A program made the position numbers and the translations under genes. A stretch of 64,000 bases of DNA, taken from contig JAKAHC010000010.1 in NCBI GenBank assembly GCA_021815305.1, positions 7,997-71,996 on the forward strand. Reading direction: 5' to 3'. The notes beneath the pieces were generated by a model. That model was not told the DNA's origin and ran no database searches. It saw nothing but the letters and a program-made list of their open reading frames with translations. The stretch is from Deltaproteobacteria bacterium (lineage in GTDB: Bacteria > Desulfobacterota > Deferrimicrobia > Deferrimicrobiales > Deferrimicrobiaceae). Each line of letters begins with the position of its first letter. Position 1 is the stretch's first letter. Positions 2,625 through 19,899 of the stretch are shown in pieces.

Positions 2625-2672
2625 ATCATGATCCCGCCCGAGATTCCCAACAATCCCTCTTAAGGACTGTTC
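2625..2672 (-). promoter_or_regulatory. Predicted sigma70-type promoter P3 with upstream activator box
   Basis: Minus strand reads GAACAGTCCTTAAGAGGGA-TTGTTG-17 nt-CATGAT. Same architecture as the sites at 11154-11201 and 17070-17117. Confidence 0.55.
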
Positions 2673-2830
2673 TCGCTCCTCCAAAGGAGAACAACATTTA
2701 TCCTGTGATTACGGTTAGTTATAGATATCCAGGGATGGAGGGGCAGGCCGCGTGATCCCGCTGTCCCGATGCATCTCGGAGCCTTCGCAGACGGTTCCCC
2801 CGGATCGAGCCGACCCGGTTGCCGGCGGAT

Positions 2831-3019
2831 TTATTCCAGCACGATGGCCCTGACGGGGCACACTTCGATGCAGATCTTGCATTCATCGCATCGGTCCCCG
2901 TCGACCTCCGCTTTCCCGCCGGCCAGGCGGATGGCATCGTAAGGGCAGTTGAAGATGCATTCCTGCCGTTCCCGCCCCGCGCATGCATCGCACGCGTCCC
3001 TGTTCACCAATGCCGGCAT
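2831..3019 (-). CDS. 2x[4Fe-4S] ferredoxin (62 aa)
   Basis: C-terminal part of the long track ORF 2831..5902: MPALVNRDACDACAGRERQECIFNCP...CDECKICIEVCP, two Cys clusters. Confidence 0.85.
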   Translation of the reverse strand: MPALVNRDACDACAGRERQECIFNCPYDAIRLAGGKAEVDGDRCDECKICIEVCPVRAIVLE

Positions 3020-3072
3020 CGGTCGACCTTTCGTTGGAAGTATTTCCGGGAGCGCTTCCGCCCGGGTTCCCG

Positions 3073-5079
3073 TCAGATCCTGGCTCCGGCGAGCCTTCCC
3101 CCGTACACGGCGTCCGCCACGGAACGCGGGCTGACGCAATCCCCGATTTCGTGGAGTTCCGCCGGGATCCCCTGGAGTTCGTCGATCAGTCTCCGATTCG
3201 CGGTCCTTCCCAGGGAGAGCACGACCGTATCGGCCCCGACGAGGCTTCTGTTTCCCCCGGCGTCGGAAACCAGCACGCCCGCCTTCTCGATCCGCAAGAC
3301 TTTCGTGGAGAACATCGCTTTCACGTTCCTCTCCTGCAGCATCCCGAAGAGGATGGGGAGCGCCCGGATGGGACCGAGCCGGTTCATGGCGACGGTCTCC
3401 GCTTCCCGGATGACCGTCACGTCCTTCCCCTGGTCGGCCAGGGTGATCGCGGTCTCCACGTCCCAGAACGCCCCGCCGACGACGACGACCCTCTTCCCGG
3501 TCGCAGCCCCTTCGAGCAGGACGTTCTCCTCCGTTATGACGATCGGCTCGTCCGCCCCCTCGATCTCCCGGTTCGGAGAGGATCCGGTCGCCACGATCAC
3601 GGCGTCGGGGGAGATTTCCGCGACCAGTTCCCTCGTGACTTCCGTGTTCAGGCGGACCTTGACTCCGAGTCTCTCGATCTGCCGCGTGTGCCACCGGGTG
3701 AAGGTCCTCCATTCGCGCGTAAGGGGAGCGGCCGCCGCCACGCGCAGCGTGCCCCCCAACCGGTCCTCCTTCTCGCAGAGCGTGACGTCGTGTCCCCGTT
3801 CGCGGGCCACCCGCGCGGCCTCCATGCCTCCCGGCCCCCCGCCGACCACGAGGACCTTCCTCGGCCGGGCGGCGGGCGCGACCTTCGGAAGGATCAGCTC
3901 TCTCGCCGAATCCGCGTTGATCGCGCAATACTTGGTCCAGCCCGATTCCGTCATGCAATATCCGCATGCGACGCACATCCGGACGTCGTCCGGCCTCCCT
4001 TCGATCATCTTCCTCGGCATGAGAGGATCCGCCATGAGGGGCCGGGAAAGAGCGGCGACGTCGCACCGGTCGCTCTCGATCGCCCGCAGGATCATCCGCG
4101 GATCGCAAAGCCGCCCCGCGACGATCACCGGCAATTTCGTCACCTTCTTGACCGCCTCGGAATGGTGCAGCCAGGTTCCCCGCGCGTCGTACATGGGAGG
4201 AATGATCCGGTGCGGGGTATGGTCGAGCACGCCCGCCGACAGGTCGATCGCGTCGACGCCCGCTTCGTCGAGCCGCGGCACCACGTGACGGAGCGTGTCC
4301 TCGAACCGGATCCCGGCCGCCCCCAGCCCCTGGTCGGCGGCGATCCGTACGATCAACGGGTACCCCTTGCCCACCGCCGCCCGGGTCGCCTGCACGATCT
4401 CGCACGGCAGGCGCATGCGGTTCTCCCAGCCGCCGCCGAACGCGTCGGTCCTCACGTTGGTGTACGGGGAGATGAAATCCATGATGAGCGTCACGTTGGC
4501 GAAGTGGAGGTTGACGGCGTCGTACCCTGCCTTCTTGGCCCGCAGGGCCGCCAGCACGTGCATCCGGACCACCTGCTCGATCTCTTCCTGCGAGATCTCC
4601 CGGACCGGAGCGGGCGGCATCGTGTTTGCGGCATGCCACGTCCCATCCTTCCTCGTCAGCTCCCATTTGGGCGCCGCCAGGAAGGGCACCTTGGCCGAGG
4701 CGCCCCACGGGAGCATCCCCGGGTCCGCCTGCGCCCAGTACCGGGCCGCTGCCCTTCCGGGATGGTAGATCTGCTGGCATGCCCTGGCCCCGTGGACCTT
4801 GATCCCCTCCGCGAGCCGTTGCAGCCCGAAAATACATTCGTCGTCCGCGATGGACAGGGCGTTCGGGAACACTTCCCCCGTCGGGCCGGGATCGACGGTC
4901 GCCCCCCCGACGCACACCATGCTCACCCCGCTCCTGGCGTACGTGTCGTTGATGGCGAAGTACGCCTCCGTGGGGTGCCCCCGGTAACACATCTCGTGGA
5001 TCGTCGGGGCCATGACGATCCGGTTGGAAAGCACCATCGACCCGATGGCTACGGGTGTGAACGCCTTCTCTGTTCCCAT
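3073..5079 (-). CDS. NADH:flavin oxidoreductase (OYE / 2,4-dienoyl-CoA reductase-like, FMN-FeS-FAD)
   Basis: LSNRIVMAP and RTDAFGGGWENRMR TIM-barrel motifs, CVACGYC Fe-S motif, VLVVGGGPGGMEAA FAD-binding fold. Confidence 0.9.
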   Translation of the reverse strand: MGTEKAFTPVAIGSMVLSNRIVMAPTIHEMCYRGHPTEAYFAINDTYARSGVSMVCVGGATVDPGPTGEVFPNALSIADDECIFGLQRLAEGIKVHGARACQQIYHPGRAAARYWAQADPGMLPWGASAKVPFLAAPKWELTRKDGTWHAANTMPPAPVREISQEEIEQVVRMHVLAALRAKKAGYDAVNLHFANVTLIMDFISPYTNVRTDAFGGGWENRMRLPCEIVQATRAAVGKGYPLIVRIAADQGLGAAGIRFEDTLRHVVPRLDEAGVDAIDLSAGVLDHTPHRIIPPMYDARGTWLHHSEAVKKVTKLPVIVAGRLCDPRMILRAIESDRCDVAALSRPLMADPLMPRKMIEGRPDDVRMCVACGYCMTESGWTKYCAINADSARELILPKVAPAARPRKVLVVGGGPGGMEAARVARERGHDVTLCEKEDRLGGTLRVAAAAPLTREWRTFTRWHTRQIERLGVKVRLNTEVTRELVAEISPDAVIVATGSSPNREIEGADEPIVITEENVLLEGAATGKRVVVVGGAFWDVETAITLADQGKDVTVIREAETVAMNRLGPIRALPILFGMLQERNVKAMFSTKVLRIEKAGVLVSDAGGNRSLVGADTVVLSLGRTANRRLIDELQGIPAELHEIGDCVSPRSVADAVYGGRLAGARI

Positions 5080-5136
5080 GGACTCTCCCTTTCCCTCGTA
5101 CCGGGGATGCTTCCGGCCCCGCGCGCGCGGCGCGGG

Positions 5137-6510
5137 TCATTTCCCATTGTAGTTCTTCTCGATGAACCGGGTCTTGTTCATGGACCGTTCCAGGGCGCCG
5201 GGAGGAAGCCACTGGATCCGCGGCGTGACCTTCAGCCGGCTCTTCATCCTTTCCTGGATCTCCCGTTCCAGGGCGGGAAGATCGGTTTCCGCGACGTGCT
5301 CTCCGCGCTCGATCTTCAGGCACAGCGGCGGGACGACCCTCGGCGGCGGTTCCGAAAGGACGATCCGGAACTCCCCCGTGACCCGGGGGGTGAAGCCGGA
5401 GATCACTCCGTCGATGGCCGCGGGATAAACGATGATGCCCTTCACTTTCAGCATGTCGTCGCAGCGGCCGATGATCCTGTACCGAAAGCCGGTGGCCCCA
5501 CAGGGGCACGGCTCGGTGAACACCTGGCACACGTCTCCGATGGTTTCGCGGAACCAGAGGAACCCTTCCCCTTCCAGCGTCGTGAAGACCGGCAACCCCC
5601 TGGCGCCGTCCTCGAACCGCACCGGCTCGTAGGTTTCGGGATCCACCAGCTCGAAGAGAACCGTGTCGTCCGCGACGTGGTGCATCCCCTGGTACTCGGG
5701 GTGGTCGCACGAAATCCCGAAGCCCGCCCCGCTGTCGGAAAGCTTCGCGCCGTAAGCGGCCTCGAGGTTGCGGCGCACCTCCGGGATTCCCGCGCCCGGC
5801 TCGCCGCCGCAGAAGAGCCGCTTGATGCCCAGTTCGCCGACGGCGCGGCCGAGATGTTCCGGCGCCTTCGCTGCAAGGTGCTCGGCCAGGGACGGGGTGC
5901 ACGCGAGGACGTTCGCCTTGAAGAGGCTAGCGAACTTCAGGATCTTCTCCGTGCCCCCTTCCGCTCCCACCGGGAAAAGGCAGGCTCCGCTCCTCTGGAA
6001 GAACTGGAGGTACGGAACCCCCGCCAGCCACATGCTCAATCCGAAGGCGTGGACGATCCTGTCCCCGGGGCCGACGCCGATCCGCCACAACATGCGGGCG
6101 AGGTTTTCCGACAGCCAGTCGATGTCGCGCGCGGTCATGGGATACGGAGTCGGTTCCCCGGTGGTCCCCGACGTCGCCGCCATCAGGACGAGGTTCTCCA
6201 TCGGGACGCCGATCGTCGCGTCCACGACGCGGGTCATGTCCATCCCGCACGCCTCCGCGAGTTCCCGGCGCTGGACCTTGTCGAACACGGGCACGCTCCG
6301 GCCGTAATCCTCCAGCGTCCTGATCCGGTCGGGCCGGACGCCGGCTCCTTTCATCCGGTCCCGCCAGAACGGCTTCCCCTCGTAGAGCCGCGCAGCCAGC
6401 TTCCTGAGCTTCTCCAGCTGGAGCGCCCGCATTTCCCGCGTGTTGAGGAGCGGCTCCATCTCCATGTTCCGGTAGGTCCGCCCGGAAAGGTTCGTCGGCA
6501 CGCCGGTCAA
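5137..6510 (-). CDS. Phenylacetate-CoA ligase (PaaK) family acyl/aryl-CoA ligase, copy 1
   Basis: ATSGTTGEP P-loop, GGEPGAG, IIGRCDDMLKVKGIIVYP. TTG start uncertain. Confidence 0.85.
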   Translation of the reverse strand: MTGVPTNLSGRTYRNMEMEPLLNTREMRALQLEKLRKLAARLYEGKPFWRDRMKGAGVRPDRIRTLEDYGRSVPVFDKVQRRELAEACGMDMTRVVDATIGVPMENLVLMAATSGTTGEPTPYPMTARDIDWLSENLARMLWRIGVGPGDRIVHAFGLSMWLAGVPYLQFFQRSGACLFPVGAEGGTEKILKFASLFKANVLACTPSLAEHLAAKAPEHLGRAVGELGIKRLFCGGEPGAGIPEVRRNLEAAYGAKLSDSGAGFGISCDHPEYQGMHHVADDTVLFELVDPETYEPVRFEDGARGLPVFTTLEGEGFLWFRETIGDVCQVFTEPCPCGATGFRYRIIGRCDDMLKVKGIIVYPAAIDGVISGFTPRVTGEFRIVLSEPPPRVVPPLCLKIERGEHVAETDLPALEREIQERMKSRLKVTPRIQWLPPGALERSMNKTRFIEKNYNGK

Positions 6511-6523
6511 CCCCGCCCCATGC

Positions 6524-7687
6524 TCAATTTTTCAGTATGTGGATGAAGCAGCTGGCCGTATCCGTGTGGATGAAGCCGCCGCCGTTGTGCTGGAGGGCCA
6601 CGCGAGCCCCTTCGACCTGCCGCTTCCCCGCCTGCCCGCGAAGCTGGCGGACAAGCTCCACGATCTGCGAGATCCCCGTCGCGCCGATGACGTGCCCCTT
6701 GGAGAGGAGTCCCCCGCTCGTGTTCACCGGCGTCTTCCCGCCGATTCCGGACTGCCCCTCCTCGACGAACCGGCCGCCTTCCCCTTTTCGGCAGAATCCC
6801 AGGTCCTCGTAATGGACGAGTTCCGCGACGCTGAAGCAGTCATGGACCTCGGCGAGATCGATGTCCCCGGGGCCGAGGCCCGCCATCCGGTAGGCCGCCT
6901 CCGCGGCGCGCACGTCGGTGTCGAAAAAGGTGTAGCTGCCCGCGTCGGAGTAGCTCCCGGAGACCTGCACCGAGGCGGCCACGGAAACGGGGGCGGAGTT
7001 GAACCTTCGCGCGATCCCGGCGGCCGAGAGCACCACGGCCGCGGCCCCGTCCCCCCTGGGACAGCATTGGGGCAGGGTCAGGGGGTCGCAGATCATGCGC
7101 GCGTTCAGCACTTCCTCGAGCGTGACGGGGTCGGTCAGCTGGGCTTCGGGGTTGAGCGCTCCGTATCTCCGGTTCTTCACCGCCACCATTGCGATCTGTT
7201 CCCGGGTCGTCCCGAACTCCGCCATGTGCCTTCGGGCCATGAGGGCGAAGAGCCCCGGCGCCGAATTGCCCATGTCCCCGTCCCGTTCCGCGTGCTGCCG
7301 CCCGGTGAACACGTTGAGGATCTTCTCCGAACCCGTAACCGTCATCTGCTCCACGCCGAAGGCCAGCGCGGTATCGCAGGCGCCGGTCGCCACCTTGTAC
7401 CAGGCCTCCCGGAAGGCGCAGGATCCCGTGGCGCAGCCGTTTTCCACGCGGGAGATGGGGATCTTCGTCAGGCCCAGCTCGCGGAGCACGGAATGGCCGA
7501 TCAGGAGCCCCTGGCCCCATTCCCACTGCGCAAGGTTCCCGGCATAGGCGAGCTGGATATCCCTGGGCTTCATGCCGGCGTCCCGGATGGCGTTGATGCA
7601 TGCCTCCTCTCCCAACGCCCGGATCGACCGGTCGGCGTATTTCCCGAACCGCATCCCCCCGACGCCCACGATGGCGACCTCTCTCAC
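6524..7687 (-). CDS. SCP2-type thiolase family protein, copy 1
   Basis: VENGCATGS, EVHDCFS, NTSGGLLSKGHVIGATG and HNGGG motifs. GTG start overlaps the upstream stop (GTGA). Confidence 0.9.
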   Translation of the reverse strand: MREVAIVGVGGMRFGKYADRSIRALGEEACINAIRDAGMKPRDIQLAYAGNLAQWEWGQGLLIGHSVLRELGLTKIPISRVENGCATGSCAFREAWYKVATGACDTALAFGVEQMTVTGSEKILNVFTGRQHAERDGDMGNSAPGLFALMARRHMAEFGTTREQIAMVAVKNRRYGALNPEAQLTDPVTLEEVLNARMICDPLTLPQCCPRGDGAAAVVLSAAGIARRFNSAPVSVAASVQVSGSYSDAGSYTFFDTDVRAAEAAYRMAGLGPGDIDLAEVHDCFSVAELVHYEDLGFCRKGEGGRFVEEGQSGIGGKTPVNTSGGLLSKGHVIGATGISQIVELVRQLRGQAGKRQVEGARVALQHNGGGFIHTDTASCFIHILKN

Positions 7688-8112
7688 GGGTTCCCCTCCG
7701 GGACCGGACGGAACTTGTAGCCGACGATCTCGTTCCCCTCTTCGTCGCGGCGGATCGTCTCGATCACCATTTCCACGTCCATGCCCACCTTGAGCACCTT
7801 GTCCCACGGCTCGCATTGCGTGATGAGCGAGAAAAGCTTGATCCCCTCCGGCAACTCGACGAAACCGATCACGAACGGCGTGGGGATCCCTCCCGGACCC
7901 ATGTGGGAAAGGGCGAACGTGTGAAGCTTCCCTTTCCGGCTCAACGGGACCTTCTTCCTGGCCGGATCGAAGCAGTTCGGGCAGACCGGCTTCTCGGGGA
8001 AAAAGATCCCGCCGCAGGCGAGACACTGCCCCCCCGCGAGGGCCAACCCGTCTCCGAAATCCCGGAACCAGCCCTCTTCGATGAGCTTCCTGTTGTCGCT
8101 GCGCGTCGACAC
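7684..8112 (-). CDS. Zn-ribbon / OB-fold (DUF35-like) thiolase partner protein
   Basis: CLACG..FFPEKPVCPNC zinc ribbon followed by an OB fold (GFVELPEG..VGMDVEM). GTG start at 8112 with GGAGAGGA RBS; coupled to the thiolase. Confidence 0.85.
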   Translation of the reverse strand: MSTRSDNRKLIEEGWFRDFGDGLALAGGQCLACGGIFFPEKPVCPNCFDPARKKVPLSRKGKLHTFALSHMGPGGIPTPFVIGFVELPEGIKLFSLITQCEPWDKVLKVGMDVEMVIETIRRDEEGNEIVGYKFRPVPEGNP

Positions 8113-8345
8113 GCATTCCTCTCCCGGAAGAAGATCCATCGTATCGAACATCCGAAATCCGGCCCCCCTGTTCCCTCTCCTTCCGGCCGATGCCGGTTTT
8201 CCCGATGGCAGGCCGGCGGAGGGATTCGACCCGGAGGAAACGGGAAGGGTCTCGGGGAAAATCCGCTTCCCCTTCCCGCTCCTCTCGGGGAGACGGCACA
8301 CTGCCTCCCAGGAGGGGACCGTAGGAGGCAAGTACCCTCTCCGGG

Positions 8346-9533
8346 CTATCTCGTCAACTCCTGGAGCTTCGTCGTGGAAAAGTCTTCTTCCGTGAGTCCT
8401 ATGTTGGTTTTCAGGATCGCGTTGTACGCCAGGGAGCACCTCTTGGCGATCAGGTCGTACATGTTCTGGTAATAGTTGAACATGACGTGATCTTTTTTCT
8501 TCACGGTCAACCCGGTTTCATTGTATTTCCAGAGCGATCCTCTTTTGTCCCACAGATCGTTGGCGCTTACCGCCCAGCTGTCCGCGTCCACGTAAACCCT
8601 TCTTTTCCCGTACACGTAATCCTTGTCCTTGTTGATTCCCTCGACGATCCATACATTCTTCAATTCATACCTTGCCTTGTCCGGGTCGAGGAACTTTCCG
8701 ATGGTCTTGGGATTGTTGGTCAGGGGATGGTACGCAACGATCATTTCCTTCTTTCCGATCAGTTTCCAGTTGTAGTCCGACACCTTGCCCGAAAATCCCC
8801 GGTAGTCGTCCCACGTGAAGTCCGTCCCCCCGAAGGTATCGCCGCGCTGCGCCACGGAGATGCGGCGGACCCTGCGGATGGTCGGGATGTACATCCACCC
8901 GTCATCCCCTTTTTTCGCATTCTGGTAACGCACGGTGAGCAACGCCAACCCGGCGATGTCCTCGGGGTAAAGGATTCCCGAGATCTCCTTCAGTTCCACG
9001 TGCTCCGAGTTCGGGATGACGGGTTTGGGATTGATCGTCAGCCGCCCCTGGTACGCGAGGCGCTTGTAGTATCCCTTGATCAGCTTGATCTTCCCGGTGC
9101 TGCTGATGCCTTCGATGTCGTACGTCGTCCAGAAGAAATCGTCCCCCGAATATTTGTATTCGTAGTTGTACATGACTTCCGCGCCCGTCTTCGGGTCGGG
9201 GAACGGAAGGCCCGCCGTGTAGTTCTCCAGGCCTCCGTCCTTGTTTACCCTGGCCGTACCCTTGTATTTTTCCGTTGCCTCGACGTATACCTTCGGGAAC
9301 TCGTAATCGTGGACCGTGTCGTACACGTTGGCCTTGTATCCCCAGTCCTTGATGAGCGTGTAAAGCCCCAGAGGCAACCTGTCCTTGTATTTTTCGACAT
9401 TCGCGTGTGTGATCGAATACTTCACCTCCCCGCCGAGGTAGCTCTTGTCCTCCGCGGAATACGCCGGGGAGCGCGGCATCATCAGGAAAGCGGCGACGGC
9501 GATCGCGAAAAGCGCTTGCTGGTATTTCTTCAT
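8346..9533 (-). CDS. DUF1329 family periplasmic protein (lipoprotein-sorting-like fold)
   Basis: Signal peptide, GLPFPDPKTGAEVMYN, WMYIPTIRRVRRI, YNWKLIGKKEM, YVYGKRRVYVDADSW. Confidence 0.85.
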   Translation of the reverse strand: MKKYQQALFAIAVAAFLMMPRSPAYSAEDKSYLGGEVKYSITHANVEKYKDRLPLGLYTLIKDWGYKANVYDTVHDYEFPKVYVEATEKYKGTARVNKDGGLENYTAGLPFPDPKTGAEVMYNYEYKYSGDDFFWTTYDIEGISSTGKIKLIKGYYKRLAYQGRLTINPKPVIPNSEHVELKEISGILYPEDIAGLALLTVRYQNAKKGDDGWMYIPTIRRVRRISVAQRGDTFGGTDFTWDDYRGFSGKVSDYNWKLIGKKEMIVAYHPLTNNPKTIGKFLDPDKARYELKNVWIVEGINKDKDYVYGKRRVYVDADSWAVSANDLWDKRGSLWKYNETGLTVKKKDHVMFNYYQNMYDLIAKRCSLAYNAILKTNIGLTEEDFSTTKLQELTR

Positions 9534-9567
9534 TTTTTCCTCCCTGGGTCGTCTACGGATCCGGAAT

Positions 9568-10950
9568 CTATTGGAACGAATACTTCACATCGATGTACGC
9601 CTCGCTCCGGTCGCTGAACGGGTCGAAATATCCGCGGCCGTCCGCATGGCCCCAGAACTTGTTGTAGGCCAGGGAAACGCTGAGGTTATCCCCATACTTC
9701 AGGTTGAGCAGTGGTCGGGCCCAACCGGAGCCGATGGTGTCATAGAAAACAAAAATAGAAGGTGTGAGGACGGCATTGGGGATGAGGTACACATACGAAG
9801 TCGTGATAAAGCCCGATAACATCGTCTGGGCGGATTTCTGCCCGGGAGCGGCGGAATCCCCGAACATGACGGTTGTCGACTCGGGGTTGAGGACTTTTTT
9901 GTAGAAAACCTGAAAACTCAGCATGGACGACTCGGAGTTGATCGGGAGGTACGTGGGACGGTCCGCCCCGAGCATGAAGGCGATCGTGTTCTGCTTCGCG
10001 ATGAAGTCGGGTTTCGTGAAATCGGTTTGCGGCTCGTTGATGTTGAAAACCGTTTCGCCGCGCAGCACGGTCTTGATGGGATCGACGAACGTGTTGAACG
10101 TTCCGCCGATGGAGTTCACGTACGGATGGGCGAAATCCAGTCCGGCGTCCGTGAGTTCCGCCGAGGGGTTCTCGTTGCGGTGATAATAGTCGTAAAGCGA
10201 AACATCGAACCCGGAACCGATCGTGGTCTTGATCTTCGCACCGACGGAGCCGTTGTTCACGCTCGTGCTGTAATTCTTCTCCGGAAGCCCGCCGATTCCG
10301 GCGCCGGGGAACTCCCAATAGGTGCCCTTCCCCGCCCACTTCGACGGTTTGAAGGTAACCGGGGACCAGACGAATTCGAGGTCCGTCTTGGGGGTCACCC
10401 CGTAGATCGCGCGGACCATCGGAAGCCCCTGGCGAATGTCCTGCCAGTCTTCAAGGAAGTAATGCCACCGGAAGTCCAGCGGGTTGATGATATCGGCCAG
10501 GCGCAACCCGTCCGATTCCCCCCATACGACCTGCTGCTTGCCGAGGCGGAGGAAGAGCGGACCCTTGCGGACATCCACGTACAACTCCCTGACCTCGTTC
10601 TCCTGTCGCTGATCGTCGATGACCGCCCGGGAGAAATTGTCCAGCCCCTTGAAATCGAAGGATGCGTCGTACGATCCGCGCCAGCGGGTGTAGACCTTCA
10701 CGTCGGGGCTGACGGTATAGGTCCCTTCCAGTTGCAGGAACGATTTGGACAGCTCCACTTCCCCCTTCTTGAACTGCTCTCCCCCAAGGCCCTGCTTCGG
10801 ATCTTCCGTTCGCACCGCGGTGATGTCGCGCAGGTAACCTTTGAGCTCCAGGCTTCCATCCAGCAACGTGTACGCGTAACCGCTGGAAGAGCCGATAAGC
10901 ATTGCGGCGACCAGAGACATCCAAAACCATTGTCCCGCCCGTTTCCTCAT
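9568..10950 (-). CDS. DUF1302 family outer-membrane beta-barrel protein
   Basis: Signal peptide, RELYVD..LRLGKQQVVWGESDG..DIINP, C-terminal YSFQ. ATG 10950 with GGAGG RBS. Confidence 0.85.
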   Translation of the reverse strand: MRKRAGQWFWMSLVAAMLIGSSSGYAYTLLDGSLELKGYLRDITAVRTEDPKQGLGGEQFKKGEVELSKSFLQLEGTYTVSPDVKVYTRWRGSYDASFDFKGLDNFSRAVIDDQRQENEVRELYVDVRKGPLFLRLGKQQVVWGESDGLRLADIINPLDFRWHYFLEDWQDIRQGLPMVRAIYGVTPKTDLEFVWSPVTFKPSKWAGKGTYWEFPGAGIGGLPEKNYSTSVNNGSVGAKIKTTIGSGFDVSLYDYYHRNENPSAELTDAGLDFAHPYVNSIGGTFNTFVDPIKTVLRGETVFNINEPQTDFTKPDFIAKQNTIAFMLGADRPTYLPINSESSMLSFQVFYKKVLNPESTTVMFGDSAAPGQKSAQTMLSGFITTSYVYLIPNAVLTPSIFVFYDTIGSGWARPLLNLKYGDNLSVSLAYNKFWGHADGRGYFDPFSDRSEAYIDVKYSFQ

Positions 10951-11080
10951 ACCTCCCTCCCTGTCCCCTTTTCTTTTTTCCCGCTTGCGCTGCTGCAACG
11001 AAACGCTCCCTCGCGCGTAAGAACAACGCTTACGTCTCTATTTTCAGAAATGTTTCTCATACCAACTTTCGCGCGGGTTT

Positions 11081-11132
11081 TTTGTAGCAACGTCCCCTAT
11101 TGTTGTTTTGTAGCAACGTCCCCTATTGTTGT
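11081..11132. repeat. Perfect 26-bp tandem direct repeat, two copies
   Basis: TTTGTAGCAACGTCCCCTATTGTTGT at 11081-11106 and 11107-11132. Confidence 0.95.
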
Positions 11133-11153
11133 TGGGGATACCGTGCGCATCCA

Positions 11154-11201
11154 TGTATAGAACGGGGATTGATTCGCAACAATCCTGCGGACGGATAGAA
11201 A
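11154..11201 (-). promoter_or_regulatory. Predicted promoter P2 with upstream activator box
   Basis: Minus strand reads ATTCTATCCGTCCGCAGGA-TTGTTG-17 nt-TATACA. Confidence 0.55.
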
Positions 11202-11256
11202 TTGCGCCTCGAAGGAGGGGGCGCGAGATCGCCCGTCGGCCGTTCCGGTATTCCCT

Positions 11257-12795
11257 TCATCCCCGTGGAGCGGCCACCGGACGACTGCGCAGTTCATGCT
11301 TCCGGATCCCCGCGATGGACGTCTTCGGCAGTTCCCGGACCAACTCGACATGCCGGGGCACCAGCCGGGAGGCCAACCTTGCGGCGCACCATTCCGTGAT
11401 CTCTCCCGGGGCGAGAGTCTCCCCCGGCCGGGGGACGATGAAGACCCTCACGTCCTCCTCGTCCAGCTCCGAAAGGATCCCCGTCGCCGCCGATTCCTGG
11501 ACCTTGGGGTGGTCGTTCACGATTCTTTCGATCTCGATGCTCGGGAAAATCTCCCCCCGGTTCCGGATACAATCCGCCTTGCGGTCGAGGAAATAGAAAT
11601 TCCCCTCGTCATCGGTGTACCCGCGGTCTCCAGTGTGAAACCATCCGTTCCGCATGTTCTCCGCGGTCCGATCGTGCTCCCGGTAATAACCGAGGAAAAC
11701 CCCCTCCGGGACACTGGGGCGCAGGACGATTTCCCCGGAGATTCCCGTGGGCAGCTCCTCGTCGAATTCATCGACGACCTTTACGTCGTAACCGGGGAGC
11801 GGTTTCCCGATCGCACCCGTTTTCGCGCTTCCGCCGAAGTGCGCGATGCACATCCCCCCGATTTCGGTCAGGCCGAATCCTTCCACGACCCTTACGCCGA
11901 ACCGTTCCTCGAAGTCGTGTTTTGTCCTCGCAGGCAATCCCCCGCCGAAGGCCAGCCGGGCCGGGTTCTCCGCGTCTCCCGGCCGCGGAGCCGTATGCAT
12001 CAGGCAGGCGATCATCGAACCCGTGCAGGCGAAGACCGTCGCCCCGCAACGTCGAAGGTCATCGACAAAGGTCAAAGCGTCAAACCCCTCGCCCAGCACC
12101 AGCGGACATCCGCTGGTCATCGCTCCGACGACCGTGAGCGTCTGTGTGTGGACCCGGGAAAGGGGAAGCGATGTGTAGAACACGTCTCCCGCCGCGGCCC
12201 GGACCACGGAATCGACCCAGATTCTCCCGGAATGGAGATAATTGCGTTGGGACAACATCGCCCCTTTGGGTACACCGGTGGTGCCCGGCGTATAAACGAT
12301 GGACATGACGTCCGACGGCTCCGTCACCGGAGGGCGAGACAACGTCCGGGGGAGGCCGATGATCGTTTCGTGATAATCCAGGAAACCCGGAGGAATTCCG
12401 CCGATACCGCCGATCCATATTTTCCCCCGGATTTTTGGCAAGTTGCGAACGGAGTGTTCCGCCGCGAAAAATGCGGAATCCTCCACCGCGAGAACGGTCG
12501 CATCCGAATGGCCGGCGATATGGGAAACCTCGTATTCTTTCAGGGAAGTGTCCACGGGCACCATGATGGCGCCAAGCTTTGAAATGCCGAACCACAGCTC
12601 GAGGAATTCCGGCCGGTTGGAAATCATCAGGCAGACCTTGTCCCCCCGCCGTACGCCGATCTCCCTCAGCAGGTTGGCCGCCCGGTTGCTTGTTTCCTCC
12701 ATCCGGGCAAAGGATACGGATCGATCCCTGAAACGGAGGAAGGTGGAGTCGCCCCTGGACTCCACCTGTTTCCGGAGAATATCCGGCAATACCAT
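11257..12795 (-). CDS. CaiC-like AMP-binding acyl-CoA ligase homolog with degenerate catalytic motifs
   Basis: Full ANL fold motifs (EGFGLTE, GWFHTGDRG), but the P-loop is YTPGTTG and the A10 region is PKTSIAGIRK. Confidence 0.8.
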   Translation of the reverse strand: MVLPDILRKQVESRGDSTFLRFRDRSVSFARMEETSNRAANLLREIGVRRGDKVCLMISNRPEFLELWFGISKLGAIMVPVDTSLKEYEVSHIAGHSDATVLAVEDSAFFAAEHSVRNLPKIRGKIWIGGIGGIPPGFLDYHETIIGLPRTLSRPPVTEPSDVMSIVYTPGTTGVPKGAMLSQRNYLHSGRIWVDSVVRAAAGDVFYTSLPLSRVHTQTLTVVGAMTSGCPLVLGEGFDALTFVDDLRRCGATVFACTGSMIACLMHTAPRPGDAENPARLAFGGGLPARTKHDFEERFGVRVVEGFGLTEIGGMCIAHFGGSAKTGAIGKPLPGYDVKVVDEFDEELPTGISGEIVLRPSVPEGVFLGYYREHDRTAENMRNGWFHTGDRGYTDDEGNFYFLDRKADCIRNRGEIFPSIEIERIVNDHPKVQESAATGILSELDEEDVRVFIVPRPGETLAPGEITEWCAARLASRLVPRHVELVRELPKTSIAGIRKHELRSRPVAAPRG

Positions 12796-12996
12796 CGGCC
12801 ACCTCTGATTCGAGCAACTCGCGCATCCGGAACCTTATTCCACAAGAGGGGGCGGGTGCCATCCGGCGAAAGAATCGTTCTTCCCGCTCGAAAGGAGGGC
12901 GGAGATGGCGATCGGGGAGAAGAGCGATATCTCCGCGGGTTCCCGACAGGACCCGCCGGTGCAAGGCCGGTGCGGCATCCTGCGGACTTCGCCCCG

Positions 12997-14259
12997 TCAG
13001 CCGGCGCCCTGCCTTCCGTCGCTCCTCGGGTACGTCTCCTTCAGGAAATATCCGGCCATCGCACAAAGCGTGTTGTTCTCCCCGTCCTCGATCGTCAACG
13101 CCCTCGAGTCCCTCCAGAACTTTTCGATGATGTACTCCCTGGTCAGGCCGTTGGCGCCGTGCAACTGTACGGCCTCGTCGATGACTTCCCGGGCCATCTC
13201 GGTGCATATGGCCTTCGCGCTGTAGGAATATTCGGGGAATGGCGGGTACACCTTGACCGCGAGGTTCCATACCGCGCGACTCGTGGCGCGGATGGCTTCG
13301 ACCTTCCCGAACATCCTGGCGATCCGTACCTTGGTGAAGTAATGGTCGATGAGGACCTTGCCGCCCTGCACCCTCTCCTTGCTGTACGCGAGCGCCTCGT
13401 CGAAGGCCGCCCGGGCCAACCCGATGGCGAAGAGGGTCATCGCCGCATTGCCGAACGCGAGGTTGTTCGCGGTCCACGTCGAATATCGATCTGGCCCGAC
13501 GAACATGTACCTCCCGGGAATCCGGACATCGTTGAAGAACAGTTCCCCTTGCGGAAGGTCGCGCTGCCCCACTTTCTCGAGCGCTTTTCCCCGGGAGATG
13601 CCCGGAAGGTCGAGGGGAAGGATGCACACGCCGCCGCCGGACAGCCCCAGCGCCGGATCGGTCTGGACGTTGATCATGCCGTGAGTCGCGATGGGCCCGC
13701 AGGACACCCAGGCGGATTTCTGCCCGTTGATGACCCATTCGTTCCCGTCCCGCCTTGCCTGCACATTGCCGCGCGCTCCCGGGGCGGTAAAGAAGCTCTC
13801 GTTCACGTTGATGGAGTCCGACCCGCGATCCGGTTCCGTGATGGCCCAGCACGCCGTGATGTCCGGCTCGTTCGTCCTGCAGAAAGGAACCACGAACTCG
13901 TCGATGAGGCCCTTGTCGCCGGATTGGAGGACCTTGAAAAAGGGCCACGAGGCGAGCAGGAGGACCCCCGAAAGCCCCAGGCTCCCCCAGATGATTTCCT
14001 CGTTCAGGATATGCCCCTGCAGCGGAGTGAACCCCAGCCCTCCGAGCTCGGCGGGAAACAGCGCCTTGTGATACCCCAGCGCATATGCCTGCCGCAGGAA
14101 TTCCCAGAGGGGCGACTCCTTGCCGGCCGCTTCCTCCGCCGTCATGCGATCGACTTCCCGGGCGATCGGCCGCATGACCTCCCTTGCGAACTTATGCGCC
14201 GTCGCCTTGATCTCCTTGTCTTCCCACGTCAATTCCAGATTCATGTCGAAGTACGGCAT
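12997..14259 (-). CDS. Acyl-CoA dehydrogenase family protein
   Basis: WAITEPDRGSD, WVINGQKSAW, ARAAFDEALAYSKERVQGGK, QLHGANG...EKFWRD. Confidence 0.9.
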   Translation of the reverse strand: MPYFDMNLELTWEDKEIKATAHKFAREVMRPIAREVDRMTAEEAAGKESPLWEFLRQAYALGYHKALFPAELGGLGFTPLQGHILNEEIIWGSLGLSGVLLLASWPFFKVLQSGDKGLIDEFVVPFCRTNEPDITACWAITEPDRGSDSINVNESFFTAPGARGNVQARRDGNEWVINGQKSAWVSCGPIATHGMINVQTDPALGLSGGGVCILPLDLPGISRGKALEKVGQRDLPQGELFFNDVRIPGRYMFVGPDRYSTWTANNLAFGNAAMTLFAIGLARAAFDEALAYSKERVQGGKVLIDHYFTKVRIARMFGKVEAIRATSRAVWNLAVKVYPPFPEYSYSAKAICTEMAREVIDEAVQLHGANGLTREYIIEKFWRDSRALTIEDGENNTLCAMAGYFLKETYPRSDGRQGAG

Positions 14260-14338
14260 TTCCCCGCCCCTCCGCCTCGTTATCCTGCGCCGCCGCTCCC
14301 CGCCGCTCTCCTTGGAAAGCGGTTTCCGCCGCCGTATT

Positions 14339-15559
14339 TCACCGCTTGAAGATGTGAAGGGCCATGGCGGCGGCGTCCGCCCCCAGGATTCCCCCGCCGT
14401 TATGGGTCATTCCCGTGTTTGCGCCCCGCACCTGCCTGCTTCCGGCTCGGCCCTGCAACTGCGCCACGATCTCGTGGATCTGGCCGACCCCCGTCGCTCC
14501 GACGGGGTGCCCCTTGGTCTCCAAGCCGCCCGAAGTGTTGGTCGGCATGCTTCCCGATATCTCCAGGCATCCCTCGTCGATCCATTTGCAGGCATCCTCC
14601 CCCGGACAGATCCCGAGCTGGATCAGCGACATGATCTCCGAGGGAGCGGTCGCGTCGTGGACCTCGATGACGTCGATTTCCTCCGGGCCGATCCCGGCCC
14701 GCCGGAACGTCTCCGGGGCCATCACCTGGGCCACCGCCTCCTCTTCCGCCGACAGGGACCCGCTCCCCACGTTCGAGGCGGCGACCCAGACCGGAGCGGA
14801 CGTGAACCTTGCGGCGAGGGAACGGGAGCAAAGGATGCACGCGGCCGCGCCGTCGCCGATCGGGGCGCACATCATCCGGGTCAGCGGATAGGCCACCTCG
14901 CCCGAGGCGAGCACCTCCTCGAGGGTCACCACCTGTTGATACTGGGCGTGCGGGTTGAGGAAGCCGTTCCTGTGGTTCTTCACCGCGATCCCGGCGAAAT
15001 GCTCCCGCGTCAACCCGTACTTTTCCATGTAGGGCGCGACGTAGAAGGCGTACATGTCCATGAAGATGCTCCGGCGGGTTCCGCTTCCCTCCCGGAGGAT
15101 GTCCGCCTTCCTCCCTTTCCTGGCGGCGAAGTCGCGCAGGAAGGTGCTCCCCGTTTCCACGTCGATGCCGGAGGAAAGGGCACGGAACGACCGGAGCCTG
15201 TCCTCGTCGTACAGCTTCTCGAAACCGACCACCAGGACGCAGTCGTACATCCCCGAAGCCACTCCCGCCCAGCCGAGGTGAAACGCCGTCGAGGAGCTGG
15301 CGCAGGCGTTCTCCACGTTGAAGACGGGGATCCCCTCGATGCCGAGGGGGCTGAGCGTCACCTGGCCCCGGATCATCTCCTGCCCGGTCATGAGCCCCGC
15401 AGCCGCGTTGCCCACGTACGCCGCCCCGATGTCCCCCTTCGGGATTCCCGCATCGTCGATGGCGCCGAGCACCGCCTCGCGCACCAGGTCCTTGATGCTC
15501 TTTCCCGGGAACTTCCCGAACCTTGTCATCGCAATTCCGATCACGGCGACATCCCGCAT
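14339..15559 (-). CDS. SCP2-type thiolase family protein, copy 2
   Basis: VENACASSS, EVHDAT, NTSGGLETKGHPVGATG, HNGGG. Confidence 0.9.
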   Translation of the reverse strand: MRDVAVIGIAMTRFGKFPGKSIKDLVREAVLGAIDDAGIPKGDIGAAYVGNAAAGLMTGQEMIRGQVTLSPLGIEGIPVFNVENACASSSTAFHLGWAGVASGMYDCVLVVGFEKLYDEDRLRSFRALSSGIDVETGSTFLRDFAARKGRKADILREGSGTRRSIFMDMYAFYVAPYMEKYGLTREHFAGIAVKNHRNGFLNPHAQYQQVVTLEEVLASGEVAYPLTRMMCAPIGDGAAACILCSRSLAARFTSAPVWVAASNVGSGSLSAEEEAVAQVMAPETFRRAGIGPEEIDVIEVHDATAPSEIMSLIQLGICPGEDACKWIDEGCLEISGSMPTNTSGGLETKGHPVGATGVGQIHEIVAQLQGRAGSRQVRGANTGMTHNGGGILGADAAAMALHIFKR

Positions 15560-15603
15560 GGACTGCTCCTTCCAGCCACGTATCTATCGGTTTACCGGGT
15601 CGG

Positions 15604-16971
15604 TCACGATTCGTACCGTTTCTCCAGGAGCTGGGTCTTCTTCGAAGCCCGTTCCAGGCTGAACGGCCGGATCCAGGAGATGGAAGGTCGTATGTGGAGC
15701 ACGTGGTGCATCTTCTCCACGATCTCCTTCTCCAGTCCGGGCAACTCCTCTTCGCGCACGCCCTCCCCGTGCTCCACGGTGAGCTTCAGCGGGGGGACGA
15801 CCCTTGGAGGTTTCTCGGTCAGGACGATGCGGAACGTGCCCGTGATCCTGGGAACAAAACCGTTGATCACCCCCTGGATGGCGACGGGATACACCGGCGT
15901 CCCCTTGACCTTCAGCATGTCGTCGGCGCGGCCGACGATCTTGTACCGGAATCCGCTGAACCCGCAGGGACAGGGATCGGTGAAGACCTGGTGGATGTCG
16001 TTCAAGGTGAACCGCAAGTGGTGGAAGAAAAGGCCTGCCTCCGGCGCCAGCGGCGTGAAGCACGCCAACCCGGTGGCGCCGTGCTCCAACGGAAGGGGAC
16101 GCAACGTTTCCGGGTCGACCAGTTCGTACAGGCAATGGTCGTCGGCGACCCAGTGCATCCCCTGGTACTCGGGATGGTCGCACGAAACCCCGTACCCGGC
16201 GCCCACGTCGTGGACCTTCGCCCCGTATTCCTCTTCCAGCCGGCTTCGGATCTCGGGGATCCCCGCCCCAGGTTCCGCCCCGAGGAGAAGCGTCTTGAGC
16301 CCGAGGCTGCGGACCGGCGCGCCGAGCACCTCGGGGGCACGCTCGATGAGGTGGAGCGCCAGCGAGGGAGTGCCGGAAAACATGTTCGCCTTGAAGAGCT
16401 TGATGAACTGGAGGATGCGCTCGGTCCCGGCTTCGGCCCCTATGGGTATCAGCGTGACGCCGCGGTTCCGCTTGAACCAGAACAGATGGGGAGTTCCCGC
16501 GGCGTGCATGCTCAGCCCGAAACATACGGCCAGCTTGTCCCCGGCCCTCATCCCGATCCGCCACCCGATGCGTCCGAACAACTCGCCCATGGTTTCGGTC
16601 GTTTTGTGGAATACCGGGTAGGGCGTCGGGACGCCCGTGGTCCCGGAAGTGGTCGTCAGCAGAAAAAGGTCGTCCATCCGATCCTTGCCGAAGAGGTGCA
16701 TCCATACCTTGTCCATATCGAGGTGGAATTCCTCGTAGACCTGCCGGAATTCCGCCTGTCCCACCGGTTTCAGGGCTCGCTGGAAATCGTCGAGGGAGCG
16801 GATGTCCTGGGGTTTGACACCTTCCTTTTCCATGCGGCGGCGCTCGAAGGGTACGTTCTCGTAGCAGTATCGGATCGCACCCGGAAGCCTTTCCCACTGG
16901 ATGTCGCGCATGCCGCGGGTATTCAGGAGCGGCTCGATCCCCATGTTGAAATATTTGCGAGCCTCTTGCAT
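15604..16971 (-). CDS. Phenylacetate-CoA ligase (PaaK) family ligase, copy 2
   Basis: TTSGTTGVP, GAEPGAG, GRADDMLKVKG; clear paralog of 5137..6510. ATG 16971 with GAGG RBS. Confidence 0.85.
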   Translation of the reverse strand: MQEARKYFNMGIEPLLNTRGMRDIQWERLPGAIRYCYENVPFERRRMEKEGVKPQDIRSLDDFQRALKPVGQAEFRQVYEEFHLDMDKVWMHLFGKDRMDDLFLLTTTSGTTGVPTPYPVFHKTTETMGELFGRIGWRIGMRAGDKLAVCFGLSMHAAGTPHLFWFKRNRGVTLIPIGAEAGTERILQFIKLFKANMFSGTPSLALHLIERAPEVLGAPVRSLGLKTLLLGAEPGAGIPEIRSRLEEEYGAKVHDVGAGYGVSCDHPEYQGMHWVADDHCLYELVDPETLRPLPLEHGATGLACFTPLAPEAGLFFHHLRFTLNDIHQVFTDPCPCGFSGFRYKIVGRADDMLKVKGTPVYPVAIQGVINGFVPRITGTFRIVLTEKPPRVVPPLKLTVEHGEGVREEELPGLEKEIVEKMHHVLHIRPSISWIRPFSLERASKKTQLLEKRYES

Positions 16972-17069
16972 TCCCTCGTCCTCCCGATTTCCTGCAATGA
17001 CCCCGCCCGGGAAACCCCTCTTCCTGAGGAAAGACATGGAGCTCCGGACAGGGAACCGACCGCAGTTTT

Positions 17070-17117
17070 TTTATAAGCCGGCGTAAATCCACGAACAATC
17101 CCGCTTAAGGGTAGAAT
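17070..17117 (-). promoter_or_regulatory. Predicted promoter P1 with upstream activator box
   Basis: Minus strand reads ATTCTACCCTTAAGCGGGA-TTGTTC-17 nt-TATAAA. Confidence 0.6.
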
Positions 17118-19792: not shown

Positions 19793-19881
19793 GTCGTCAG
19801 GTCCGCAGTCGCATGGAAGCCCTATTGGATACGATAAGGAGACACCGGATCTCCTAACATTGTTTTATATCATGGGACGGG

Positions 19882-19899
19882 CTTGACATCGCTGTCAAG
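19882..19899. promoter_or_regulatory. Perfect inverted repeat CTTGACA-N4-TGTCAAG upstream of the kinase (probable operator overlapping the -35)
   Basis: Sequence CTTGACATCGCTGTCAAG; on the minus strand TTGACA is followed 18 nt later by CATGAT. Confidence 0.5.

What the first reader, a model, noticed from the sequence alone, without database searches (positions are those of the whole stretch)
2625..17117. Three-promoter regulon with a shared activator box abutting the -35, probably bound by the local NarL/LuxR regulator
Seen, on the minus strand, upstream of three separate transcription units. P1 (17117-17070) ATTCTACCCTTAAGCGGGA TTGTTC-17-TATAAA. P2 (11201-11154) ATTCTATCCGTCCGCAGGA TTGTTG-17-TATACA. 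P3 (2672-2625) GAACAGTCCTTAAGAGGGA TTGTTG-17-CATGAT. All share YCC-N7-GGA directly before an identical TTGTT -35 and an exact 17-bp spacer. Inference: class II activation by the adjacent response regulator (17415-18095), which would coordinate CoA activation, outer-membrane uptake and the MMPL unit. This would be a de novo operator for an uncharacterised regulator.
Basis: partly seen in the sequence, partly recalled or inferred. Interest (0 to 1): 0.68.

Follow-up and report, generated by a model that had tools for sequence, protein, structure and literature searches.

The report
Conserved regulator box on catabolic promoters
A conserved two-part DNA box sits just upstream of the promoters of a fatty/aromatic-acid breakdown and uptake gene island in an uncultured Deferrimicrobiaceae bacterium, and it always travels with one NarL-type two-component regulator, so it is most likely that regulator's activator site: a solid but ordinary kind of regulon.

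Summary
The three sites exist as described. They are far above chance: 3 found against 0.01 expected in the window. A proximal box (A.TTC.AC.CTT..GC.GGATTG) abuts the -35. A distal element (CCCCTTTCGAG) lies 22 bp upstream, and a -10 follows a fixed 17-bp spacer.

A weight matrix built only from other genomes' sites recovers P1, P2 and P3 in this genome. It also finds a fourth window site (12899-12833, before the AMP-ligase) and three sites on a collinear second cluster copy (contig C192). No other convincing site turned up.

The same module occurs beside every fetched orthologue of the kinase/regulator pair (9 loci, 71-81% identity), in front of differing target genes. Two distant homologues (44-48%) keep the same layout, one with a perfect palindrome. 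The -35 hexamers are weak. The box centre falls near -42 from the predicted start. The regulator's recognition helix resembles NarL's.

The best reading is class II activation by the local response regulator. It is a new member of a known kind, like TdiSR. Interest is moderate.

The parts
17070..17135 (-). P1 module before the PaaK-like CoA ligase: distal CTCCCTTTCGAG (17135-17124), box ATTCTACCCTTAAGCGGGATTG (17117-17096), -35 TTGTTC (17098-17093), 17-bp spacer, -10 TATAAA (17075-17070)
   Evidence: Sequence. External-site PWM score 39.8 bits, against a reversed-genome maximum of 13.7.
12833..12899 (-). P1b, a newly found weaker module before the AMP-binding ligase: distal CCCTCCTTTCGAG (12899-12887), box GAACGATTCTTTCGCCGGATGG (12880-12859), TGGCAC-17-ATAAGG
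   Evidence: 48-nt external PWM score 26.2, against a control maximum of 9.4. Sequence. Lies in the 200-bp ACAD/ligase gap.
11154..11220 (-). P2 module before DUF1302/DUF1329: distal CCCCTCCTTCGAG (11220-11208), box TTTCTATCCGTCCGCAGGATTG (11201-11180), -35 TTGTTG, 17-bp spacer, -10 TATACA (11159-11154)
   Evidence: Sequence. PWM scores 29.6 (24 nt) and 47.7 (48 nt). Orthologous sites in L137, L140 and C192.
2625..2690 (-). P3 module before the BNR/Ycf48-like and MMPL/RND genes: distal TCTCCTTTGGAG (2690-2679), box GAACAGTCCTTAAGAGGGATTG (2672-2651), -35 TTGTTG, 17-bp spacer, -10 CATGAT (2630-2625)
Evidence: Sequence. 48-nt PWM score 26.2 against 9.4 for the control. Counterpart at C192:4071.
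17415..18095 (-). NarL/LuxR-type response regulator (receiver domain plus GerE HTH), the proposed binder
   Evidence: Pfam Response_reg 2e-30 and GerE 4e-19. Best solved relative is NarL 1a04, E 7e-39. Recognition helix TVKFHVK against NarL TVKVHVK. Helix invariant in orthologues.
18107..19792 (-). Soluble HisKA_3 sensor kinase: helical N-domain, GAF-like domain and DesK-type core
   Evidence: Pfam. No hydrophobic segment. AF2 model pLDDT 78, with fold matches to phytochrome and DesK.
19869..19898 (-). The kinase/regulator operon's own promoter, TTGACA-18-CATGAT (also readable as an extended -10, TGATATAAA); carries no box
   Evidence: 10 of 12 consensus positions. Sequence. No PWM hit there.
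11257..17037 (-). Unit 1 targets: PaaK-like ligase 15604-17037, thiolase-like 14339-15559, acyl-CoA dehydrogenase 12997-14259, AMP-binding ligase 11257-12795
   Evidence: Pfam and NCBIfam. No enzyme reaches an equivalog cut-off.
2831..10950 (-). Unit 2 targets: DUF1302 9568-10950 (true ATG at 10950), DUF1329 8346-9533, OB-fold/thiolase 6524-8299, second PaaK-like ligase 5137-6510, FadH/OYE-type Fe-S flavoenzyme 3073-5079, ferredoxin about 2831-3040
3..2581 (-). Unit 3 targets: BNR/Ycf48-like exported protein 1625-2581 and HAE3/MMPL RND transporter 3-1625 (runs off the window)
   Evidence: Start codon and RBS read.

Best explanation
The box is the operator of the adjacent two-component system. 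A soluble HisKA_3 kinase carries a helical N-domain and a GAF-like sensor. It probably detects an intracellular signal tied to the substrate and phosphorylates the NarL-type regulator. Regulator dimers would then occupy two sites on each target promoter: a distal one (CCCC-TTTC-GAG, centre about -64) and a proximal one (TACCC-TTAA-GCGGGAT, centre about -42) whose 3' end merges with a weak TTGnnn -35. From there the regulator would recruit sigma-70 RNA polymerase, which is class II activation. This would switch on four transcription units in the window together: PaaK-like ligase/thiolase/ACAD; AMP-ligase; DUF1302-DUF1329-thiolase-ligase-OYE-ferredoxin; and BNR-RND. The same would apply to the collinear copy on contig C192. 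Shown here: the module is real, specific, conserved and linked to the regulator gene. Inferred: who binds it, that it activates, and where transcription starts.
For: (1) Specificity. A PWM built only from 15 sites in other genomes ranks P1, C192:18086, C192:12491 and P2 first among 5.4 million positions (30-40 bits; reversed-genome maximum 13.7). The 48-nt version adds P3 and the new site at window 12904 (26 bits against 9.4).
(2) Footprint. Across 22 aligned sites, information is high in the distal element, the box and the -10, and about zero in the spacer and flanks. The 17-bp spacing is constant.
(3) Linkage. All nine orthologous kinase/regulator loci fetched (L137-L146, L023) carry the module within about 2.5 kb. 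First target genes differ: OYE, a hypothetical gene, PaaK-like ligase, AMP-ligase, DUF1302, and a divergent ligase. No other regulator gene is shared by these loci.
(4) Distant homologues (44-48% identity) keep the grammar. L153 has the perfect palindrome TTCACCC-ATTA-GGGTGAA, and 23 bp downstream TTCACCCTTTCGGGGCAT abutting TTTACA. L152 has TTCACCCTTCGGGGGGAT-TTTACC-17-TAATAT.
(5) Among 31 related genomes the strict pattern is multi-copy only where the regulator orthologue exists (G000 3 copies, G003 3, G007 1). The other 28 genomes give 6 single hits, close to the chance rate of about 0.24 per genome.
(6) Regulator features. The receiver domain has the phospho-acceptor Asp aligned to NarL. 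The recognition-helix lysines K192 and K196 are invariant and match NarL's helix. Only three GerE-type HTH genes exist in the assembly, and the other two have different helices.
(7) Promoter quality. P1-P3 fail a sigma-70 consensus scan because the -35 matches 3 of 6, whereas the kinase operon has TTGACA.
Against: The -42 position rests on a predicted -10. The regulator, the island and the box are inherited together: DUF1302 is absent from relatives that lack the regulator. So no genome with the cluster but without the regulator was available as a control. The proximal site is only weakly symmetric, since its right half GC.GGAT is not the complement of TACCC. Part of its conservation could therefore serve sigma region 4 or another protein. 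A site overlapping the -35 could also repress. C192 may come from a co-binned relative rather than the same cell, so 'one regulator, two clusters' is uncertain.
Confidence: 0.65

Rival explanations
1. The same regulator binds the box but represses. Sitting on the -35, it blocks polymerase until the signal releases it.
For: The proximal site overlaps the -35 hexamer by about 3 bp. The -10 boxes are good (TATAAA, TATAAG), so some basal activity is plausible.
Against: The -35 hexamers are poor (3 of 6) and vary between orthologues, while the box is fixed. That is the usual mark of activator dependence. The sites lie wholly upstream of the -35 and do not cover the spacer, -10 or start. A second site sits two helical turns further upstream, which is typical of activators.
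Confidence: 0.12
2. A different DNA-binding protein, encoded elsewhere, recognises the box. The two-component system is only a neighbour, or acts on other DNA.
For: No direct link between protein and DNA has been shown. The assembly is 79% complete. The right half of the box is not a clean inverted copy of the left half.
Against: The kinase/regulator pair is the only regulator common to all 11 loci, across 44-100% identity and changing target genes. The half-site TACCC/CACCC resembles the NarL heptamer (TACYYMT, from memory), and the recognition helix matches NarL's at the lysine positions.
Confidence: 0.1
3. The similarity is left over from duplication of promoter DNA (paralogous or orthologous descent) or reflects an alternative sigma-factor promoter, with no dedicated activator.
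For: P1/C192:18086, P2/C192:12491 and P3/C192:4071 are pairs from collinear cluster copies, so some similarity is by descent.
Against: Non-homologous promoters (before OYE, ligases, DUF1302, BNR) share only the box, the distal element and the -10, with zero information between them. The conserved stretch spans about 45 bp upstream of the -35, too long for a sigma factor alone. The -10 is sigma-70-like.
Confidence: 0.05

Closest known systems
TdiSR (TutC1B1) two-component system of anaerobic toluene degraders (Azoarcus sp. CIB, Thauera, Aromatoleum)
   Same: A NarL/FixJ-type regulator encoded next to anaerobic catabolic genes. A palindromic box conserved just upstream of the -35 of more than one catabolic promoter (PbssD, PbbsA) was inferred by comparative genomics (PMC5874301).
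   Different: The TdiR box GGTGTTCGCACC is not enriched here (6 matches at up to 2 mismatches against 8.1 expected). The kinase here lacks TdiS-type PAS sensors and has a helical plus GAF-like sensor. Targets and phylum differ. Orthology to TdiR was not tested.
E. coli NarL and its heptamer sites (TACYYMT, 7-2-7 arrangement; consensus recalled from memory)
   Same: Best solved-structure relative (1a04, E 7e-39). The recognition helix TVK-HVK is shared. The left half-site TACCCTT matches the heptamer in 6 of 7 positions.
   Different: The right half (rc ATCCCGC) matches only 3 of 7, so this is not a 7-2-7 site. The symmetry in distant homologues is CCC-N4-GGG. The signal (nitrate), the membrane kinase NarX and the target genes are unrelated.
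LuxR-type class II activation at the lux box (centre -42.5; from memory)
   Same: A GerE/LuxR HTH dimer site centred about -42 abutting a weak -35, with a sigma-70 -10 at 17 bp.
   Different: LuxR is ligand-activated, not a phosphorylated response regulator. It has a single 20-bp palindrome and no second upstream site.
Pseudomonas putida PP_0767 (LuxR-type) with PP_0763 CoA ligase and PP_0765/PP_0766 (DUF1302/DUF1329)
   Same: Fitness data suggest that a LuxR-family regulator positively controls a CoA ligase and a DUF1302/DUF1329 pair. These co-function with a BNR protein and an RND transporter (bioRxiv 10.1101/2020.07.04.188060). The target gene families are the same as here.
   Different: No operator was described. 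Homology of PP_0767 to this regulator was not tested. That organism is an aerobic gammaproteobacterium.
AmeABCD of Castellaniella defragrans, and AdiRS/EdiSR of Aromatoleum aromaticum
   Same: AmeA is DUF1302, AmeB is DUF1329 and AmeD is an RND inner-membrane transporter, forming an envelope system linked to catabolism of a hydrophobic substrate (PMC6394551). AdiRS is a predicted two-component system beside acetophenone carboxylase genes (PMC4729919). This parallels the regulator orthologues L144-L146, which sit beside acetone-carboxylase-like genes.
   Different: Regulation of ame is not known from the passages read. Operators for AdiR are not described there. No sequence relationship was tested.

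Membership tests
NarL/FixJ (LuxR-HTH) response regulators | N-terminal receiver domain with a conserved phospho-acceptor Asp | tested here: met
   Pfam Response_reg 2.2e-30. D58 in FMDIRMPGMNG aligns to NarL LLDLNMPGMNG. D12, D13, T86 and K108 are invariant.
NarL/FixJ (LuxR-HTH) response regulators | C-terminal GerE/LuxR-type helix-turn-helix | tested here: met
   Pfam GerE 3.7e-19. Full-length alignment to NarL, VraR and DevR.
NarL/FixJ (LuxR-HTH) response regulators | Cognate HisKA_3-type kinase encoded alongside | tested here: met
   HisKA_3 plus HATPase_c gene directly upstream in the window and in all 10 related loci.
Class II activator-dependent sigma-70 promoter | Activator site centred near -41.5/-42.5, abutting or overlapping the -35 | tested here: inconclusive
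   The box centre lies 30 bp upstream of the first base of the predicted -10, which is about -42 if the start is 7 nt after the -10. No start site has been mapped.
Class II activator-dependent sigma-70 promoter | Poor -35 with a usable -10 | tested here: met
   -35 hexamers are TTGTTC, TTGTTG, TTGCCC and TGGTCG (3 of 6 or fewer). P1-P3 are not called by the consensus scan, whereas the kinase promoter (TTGACA) is. The -10 boxes are TATAAA, TATACA and TATAAG.
Class II activator-dependent sigma-70 promoter | Transcription depends on the activator | not testable with these tools
   Needs reporter or in vitro transcription assays.
NarL 7-2-7 operator | Two inverted TACYYMT heptamers separated by 2 bp | tested here: not met
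   The left heptamer TACCCTT matches 6 of 7. The right heptamer (rc of GCGGGAT = ATCCCGC) matches 3 of 7 (sequence; the consensus is from memory).
TdiR-type operator | Palindrome GGTGTTCGCACC upstream of the -35 of target promoters | tested here: not met
   Absent from P1-P3. The window count is at chance level.
Regulon (one motif, several transcription units, motif rare elsewhere) | Motif restricted to upstream regions of a defined gene set and conserved in orthologues | tested here: met
   Marginal hits on C12 and C247 lack the distal element, and the C12 and C247:62743 hits lie inside long open frames.

The most novel reading that the evidence does not exclude
The pair formed by the soluble helical/GAF HisKA_3 kinase and the NarL-type regulator may be a widespread, undescribed family of dedicated sensors. 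It would control CoA-dependent catabolic islands for hydrophobic acids and ketones in Deferrimicrobiaceae, Desulfosarcina and related uncultured anaerobes, including AmeABCD-like DUF1302/DUF1329/BNR/RND envelope machines and acetone-carboxylase-like enzymes. The family would share a fixed two-site promoter grammar (CCC-N4-GGG-type dyads near -64 and -42). An AMP-binding ligase is the first target gene at five of the fetched loci (L144, L145, L146, L152 after a hydrolase, window P1b) and lies in the target operon at the others. It might make or mimic the true inducer, an acyl-adenylate or acyl-CoA read by the kinase.
Probability: 0.12. Interest if true: 0.6.

Novelty: new member of a known kind. 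Interest (0 to 1): 0.4.

Why it matters
The finding gives a specific, testable operator and regulon for an uncharacterised two-component system in an uncultured anaerobe lineage. It also ties the poorly understood DUF1302/DUF1329/BNR/RND envelope system to a CoA-ligase/thiolase/OYE pathway under one switch. That echoes, in a distant phylum, the genetic hint from Pseudomonas putida that a LuxR-type regulator co-controls a CoA ligase and DUF1302/DUF1329. The box could be used to find further members of the regulon in metagenomes. It could also be used to build a reporter for identifying the unknown substrate. The design principle itself (a NarL-family regulator with a box at the -35 of catabolic promoters) is well known.

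Tried and rejected
2. The genome-contig scan with the regulator gave only one true orthologue among 80 loci (L024, the same contig as G003); the rest were generic NarL-type regulators of 36-46% identity.
3. A control of genomes with the cluster but without the regulator could not be had. DUF1302 occurs only where the regulator does (G000, G003), plus one distant hit of 39% identity.
4. Reading the box as a NarL 7-2-7 palindrome was rejected because the right half does not match. The better symmetry is A.CCT-N5-AGG.T, or CCC-N4-GGG by analogy with L153.
5. The looser pattern CC-N7-GGATKGTY is swamped by coding GGATGGTC and was uninformative.
6. Marginal PWM hits at C12:6679, C247:62743 and C247:6448 were rejected. 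They lack the distal element, and the C12 and C247:62743 hits lie inside long open frames. C192:563 (GGGATTGTTGAC before an SDR gene) lacks both the left half and the distal element.
7. The TdiR box is at chance level.
8. Rfam found nothing in 1-21000.
9. The fold search of the kinase model returned only generic phytochrome, LOV-kinase and DesK matches, with no clue to the ligand.
10. NCBIfam gave no equivalog-level names for the enzymes, so the substrate stays unidentified.


Full report
**Observation**

The one exception is that P2 begins TTTCTATCC rather than ATTCTATCC. The composite pattern YCC-N7-GGATTGTTS-N17-YAT occurs three times in the 64-kb window, against 0.01 expected from dinucleotide-preserving shuffles. 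In the whole assembly (2.73 Mb, 317 contigs, 65.5% G+C) CC-N7-GGATTGTT occurs six times. Four of these are followed by a -10-like hexamer at 17 bp: P1, P2, P3 and one site at the end of contig C192.

**Gene context**

Pfam and NCBIfam give this order on the minus strand:
- HisKA_3 kinase (18107-19792) and NarL/LuxR-type response regulator (17415-18095)
- [P1] PaaK-like ligase, thiolase-like protein, acyl-CoA dehydrogenase
- [new site] AMP-binding ligase
- [P2] DUF1302, DUF1329, OB-fold/thiolase, second PaaK-like ligase, FadH/OYE-type Fe-S flavoenzyme, ferredoxin
- [P3] BNR/Ycf48-like protein and an HAE3/MMPL RND transporter

No enzyme reaches an equivalog cut-off, so the substrate is unknown. 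Earlier notes of this scan place the organism in uncultured Deferrimicrobiaceae; I did not test this.

**The element is larger than first described**

I aligned 22 sites from this genome and from nine other contigs. The consensus is c.cCcCtTT.GAG - N5 - A.ttC.Ac.CtT..GC.GGATTGt - spacer - tA.a. The alignment shows:
- A distal element lies 22 bp upstream of the box, measured CCC to CCC.
- The -10 sits at a constant distance, with a 17-bp spacer after TTGnnn.
- Information content is high in these three blocks and about zero in the spacer, in the gap between blocks and in the flanks.
- The 'identical TTGTT' of the window is not conserved elsewhere (TTGCC, TGGTC, TTGTC). The invariant part is GC.GGATTG.

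**Genome-wide scan**

I built a weight matrix from 15 sites taken only from other genomes and scanned all 5.4 million positions of this assembly.
- With the 24-nt box, the top four hits are P1 (39.8 bits), C192:18086 (38.4), C192:12491 (31.5) and P2 (29.6). The reversed-genome control peaks at 13.7. P3 scores 16.2.
- With the 48-nt matrix (distal element plus box), the only hits well above the control (9.4) are C192:12515, P2, P1, P3 (26.2) and a new site at C193:20900. C192:18086 could not be scored with this matrix, because the contig ends 19 bp upstream of its box.
- The new site starts at window 12904, in the 200-bp gap between the dehydrogenase and the AMP-ligase. It scores 26.2, and its sequence is.

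Three marginal 24-nt hits (C12 and two on C247) lack the distal element. The C12 and C247:62743 hits lie inside long open frames, and C247:6448 is intergenic. I rejected all three.

**The second cluster copy**

Contig C192 is a fully collinear copy of the whole cluster, from PaaK-like ligase to RND transporter, at 65-94% amino-acid identity. It carries counterparts of P1, P2 and P3. It ends 19 bp upstream of the P1 counterpart's box, exactly where a kinase/regulator pair would be expected. No second such pair is in the assembly. C192 may be a paralogous cluster or may come from a co-binned relative; I cannot tell which.

**Comparative evidence**

The regulator has about 33 metagenomic orthologues at 65-81% identity. 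I fetched nine contexts. In every one the kinase/regulator pair is next to genes of the same families: AMP-ligase, PaaK-like ligase, thiolase, ACAD, OYE, ETF, DUF1302/DUF1329 and BNR/RND. In L144-L146 the neighbours also include acetone-carboxylase-like hydantoinase genes.

In every one the module is present, but the first downstream gene varies:
- OYE: L140, L143, G007
- a hypothetical gene: L138, L139, G003
- PaaK-like ligase: L137-L140, G003:C305
- DUF1302: L137, L140
- AMP-ligase: L144, L145
- a divergently transcribed ligase: L146

No other regulator gene is common to these loci.

Two distant homologues (48% and 44% identity) keep the same layout with a related sequence. In L153 (Desulfosarcina) the perfect palindrome TTCACCC-ATTA-GGGTGAA lies 23 bp upstream of TTCACCCTTTCGGGGCAT, which abuts TTTACA. 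In L152, TTCACCCTTCGGGGGGAT abuts TTTACC-17-TAATAT and faces a hydrolase/AMP-ligase operon. A perfect palindrome is what a dimeric HTH protein would bind, and the register relative to the -35 is the same as in the window.

Among 31 related genomes the strict pattern ACNCYTNNGCRGGATKG is multi-copy only in genomes with the regulator orthologue (G000 3 copies, G003 3, G007 1). The other 28 genomes give six single hits, which matches the chance rate of about 0.24 per genome.

One limitation applies. DUF1302 is also confined to G000 and G003, so the island, the regulator and the box are inherited together. A genome with the cluster but without the regulator was not available as a control.

**The proteins**

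- Regulator: a canonical NarL-family protein (receiver plus GerE domains). Its best solved relative is NarL 1a04 (E 7e-39). The phospho-acceptor Asp and the recognition helix align to NarL (TVKFHVK against TVKVHVK). T190, K192, H194 and K196 are invariant in all 11 homologues.
- Half-site: TACCCTT resembles the NarL heptamer TACYYMT (consensus from memory). The site is not a 7-2-7 palindrome, because the right half does not match.
- Other HTH genes: only three GerE-type HTH genes exist in the assembly, and the other two have different helices.
- Kinase: it has no hydrophobic segment. The model shows a helical N-domain, a long helix, a GAF-like domain and a DesK-type core (pLDDT 78). It is therefore a cytoplasmic sensor of unknown ligand.
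- Kinase operon promoter: canonical TTGACA, with no box.

**Mechanism**

If transcription starts about 7 nt after the predicted -10, the proximal box is centred near -42 and the distal element near -64. The -35 hexamers match TTGACA in only 3 of 6 positions. A consensus sigma-70 scan therefore misses P1-P3 while finding the kinase promoter. This is the textbook picture of class II activation, with a helper site two helical turns upstream.

I commit to activation by the phosphorylated local regulator, at a confidence of 0.65. The rivals are:
- repression by the same protein (0.12)
- a different binding protein (0.10)
- similarity by descent, or an alternative sigma factor (0.05)

**Comparison with known systems**

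The nearest described analogue is TdiSR of anaerobic toluene degraders. There a palindrome upstream of the -35 of two catabolic promoters was likewise inferred for a NarL/FixJ-type regulator (PMC5874301). The TdiR box itself is not present here.

In Pseudomonas putida, fitness data suggest a LuxR-type regulator (PP_0767) activates a CoA ligase and DUF1302/DUF1329 genes (10.1101/2020.07.04.188060). DUF1302, DUF1329 and an RND transporter correspond to AmeA, AmeB and AmeD of Castellaniella (PMC6394551). The predicted AdiRS system beside acetophenone carboxylase genes (PMC4729919) parallels the orthologues L144-L146.

**Verdict**

The finding is real and well supported by comparative genomics. 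It is a new member of a known kind, not a new mechanism.

Noticed in passing
window 11080-11133 (minus strand, P2 leader): A perfect tandem duplication of a 26-bp unit (CAACAATAGGGGACGTTGCTACAAAA, 2.1 copies, 100% match) lies in the roughly 200-nt 5' leader of DUF1302. It is not present in the orthologous leaders of L140 or C192, so it looks like a recent local duplication.
   Followed up: partly
window 11015-11035: A 7-bp stem hairpin (GCGTAAG-loop-CTTACGT on the plus strand) lies inside the long DUF1302 leader. The leader is about 200 nt long in orthologues too. No Rfam family matches.
   Followed up: partly
window 9568-10998: The mechanical ORF for DUF1302 starts at a TTG (10998). The real start is most likely the ATG at 10950, which has a GGGAGGGAGG RBS and gives MRKRAGQWFWMSLVAAML..., a signal peptide that matches the L140 orthologue.
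   Followed up: yes
G000 contig C192 (L001), 1-18105: A complete collinear second copy of the catabolic/uptake cluster at 65-94% amino-acid identity, with its own boxes at 18086, 12491 and 4071. The contig ends where the kinase/regulator pair would be. It may be a paralogous cluster or a co-binned related strain (MAG contamination 4.7%).
   Followed up: partly
window 19883-19898 and 19961-19972 (minus strand): The -35 of the kinase promoter is part of a palindrome, TTGACAGCGATGTCAA. Sixty-two bp upstream of that -35 lies GGTGTTCGCAGC, one mismatch from the TdiR box of toluene degraders. Neither is conserved in the orthologous upstream regions I read, so both are probably coincidental.
   Followed up: partly
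L144, L145, L146 (regulator orthologues at 71-74% identity): Here the same kinase/regulator pair and box sit beside acetone/acetophenone-carboxylase-like genes (Hydantoinase_A/B, Acetone_carb_G), together with an AMP-ligase and, in L144/L145, DUF1302/DUF1329. This suggests the regulator family serves ketone as well as acid catabolism.
   Followed up: partly
window 11257-12795: An earlier first-reader note (e1-5222140) says this AMP-binding ligase has degenerate catalytic motifs. An AMP-binding ligase is the first gene behind the box at L144, L145, L146 and window P1b, and follows a hydrolase in L152. I did not check the motifs.
   Followed up: no
L137 10720-10745: Between the regulator gene and the PaaK-like promoter of L137 lies a degenerate box-like stretch (CTCCTCCTTTAAGCGGAATCACC). 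It may be a relic of the regulator-proximal promoter seen in L138-L140.
   Followed up: no
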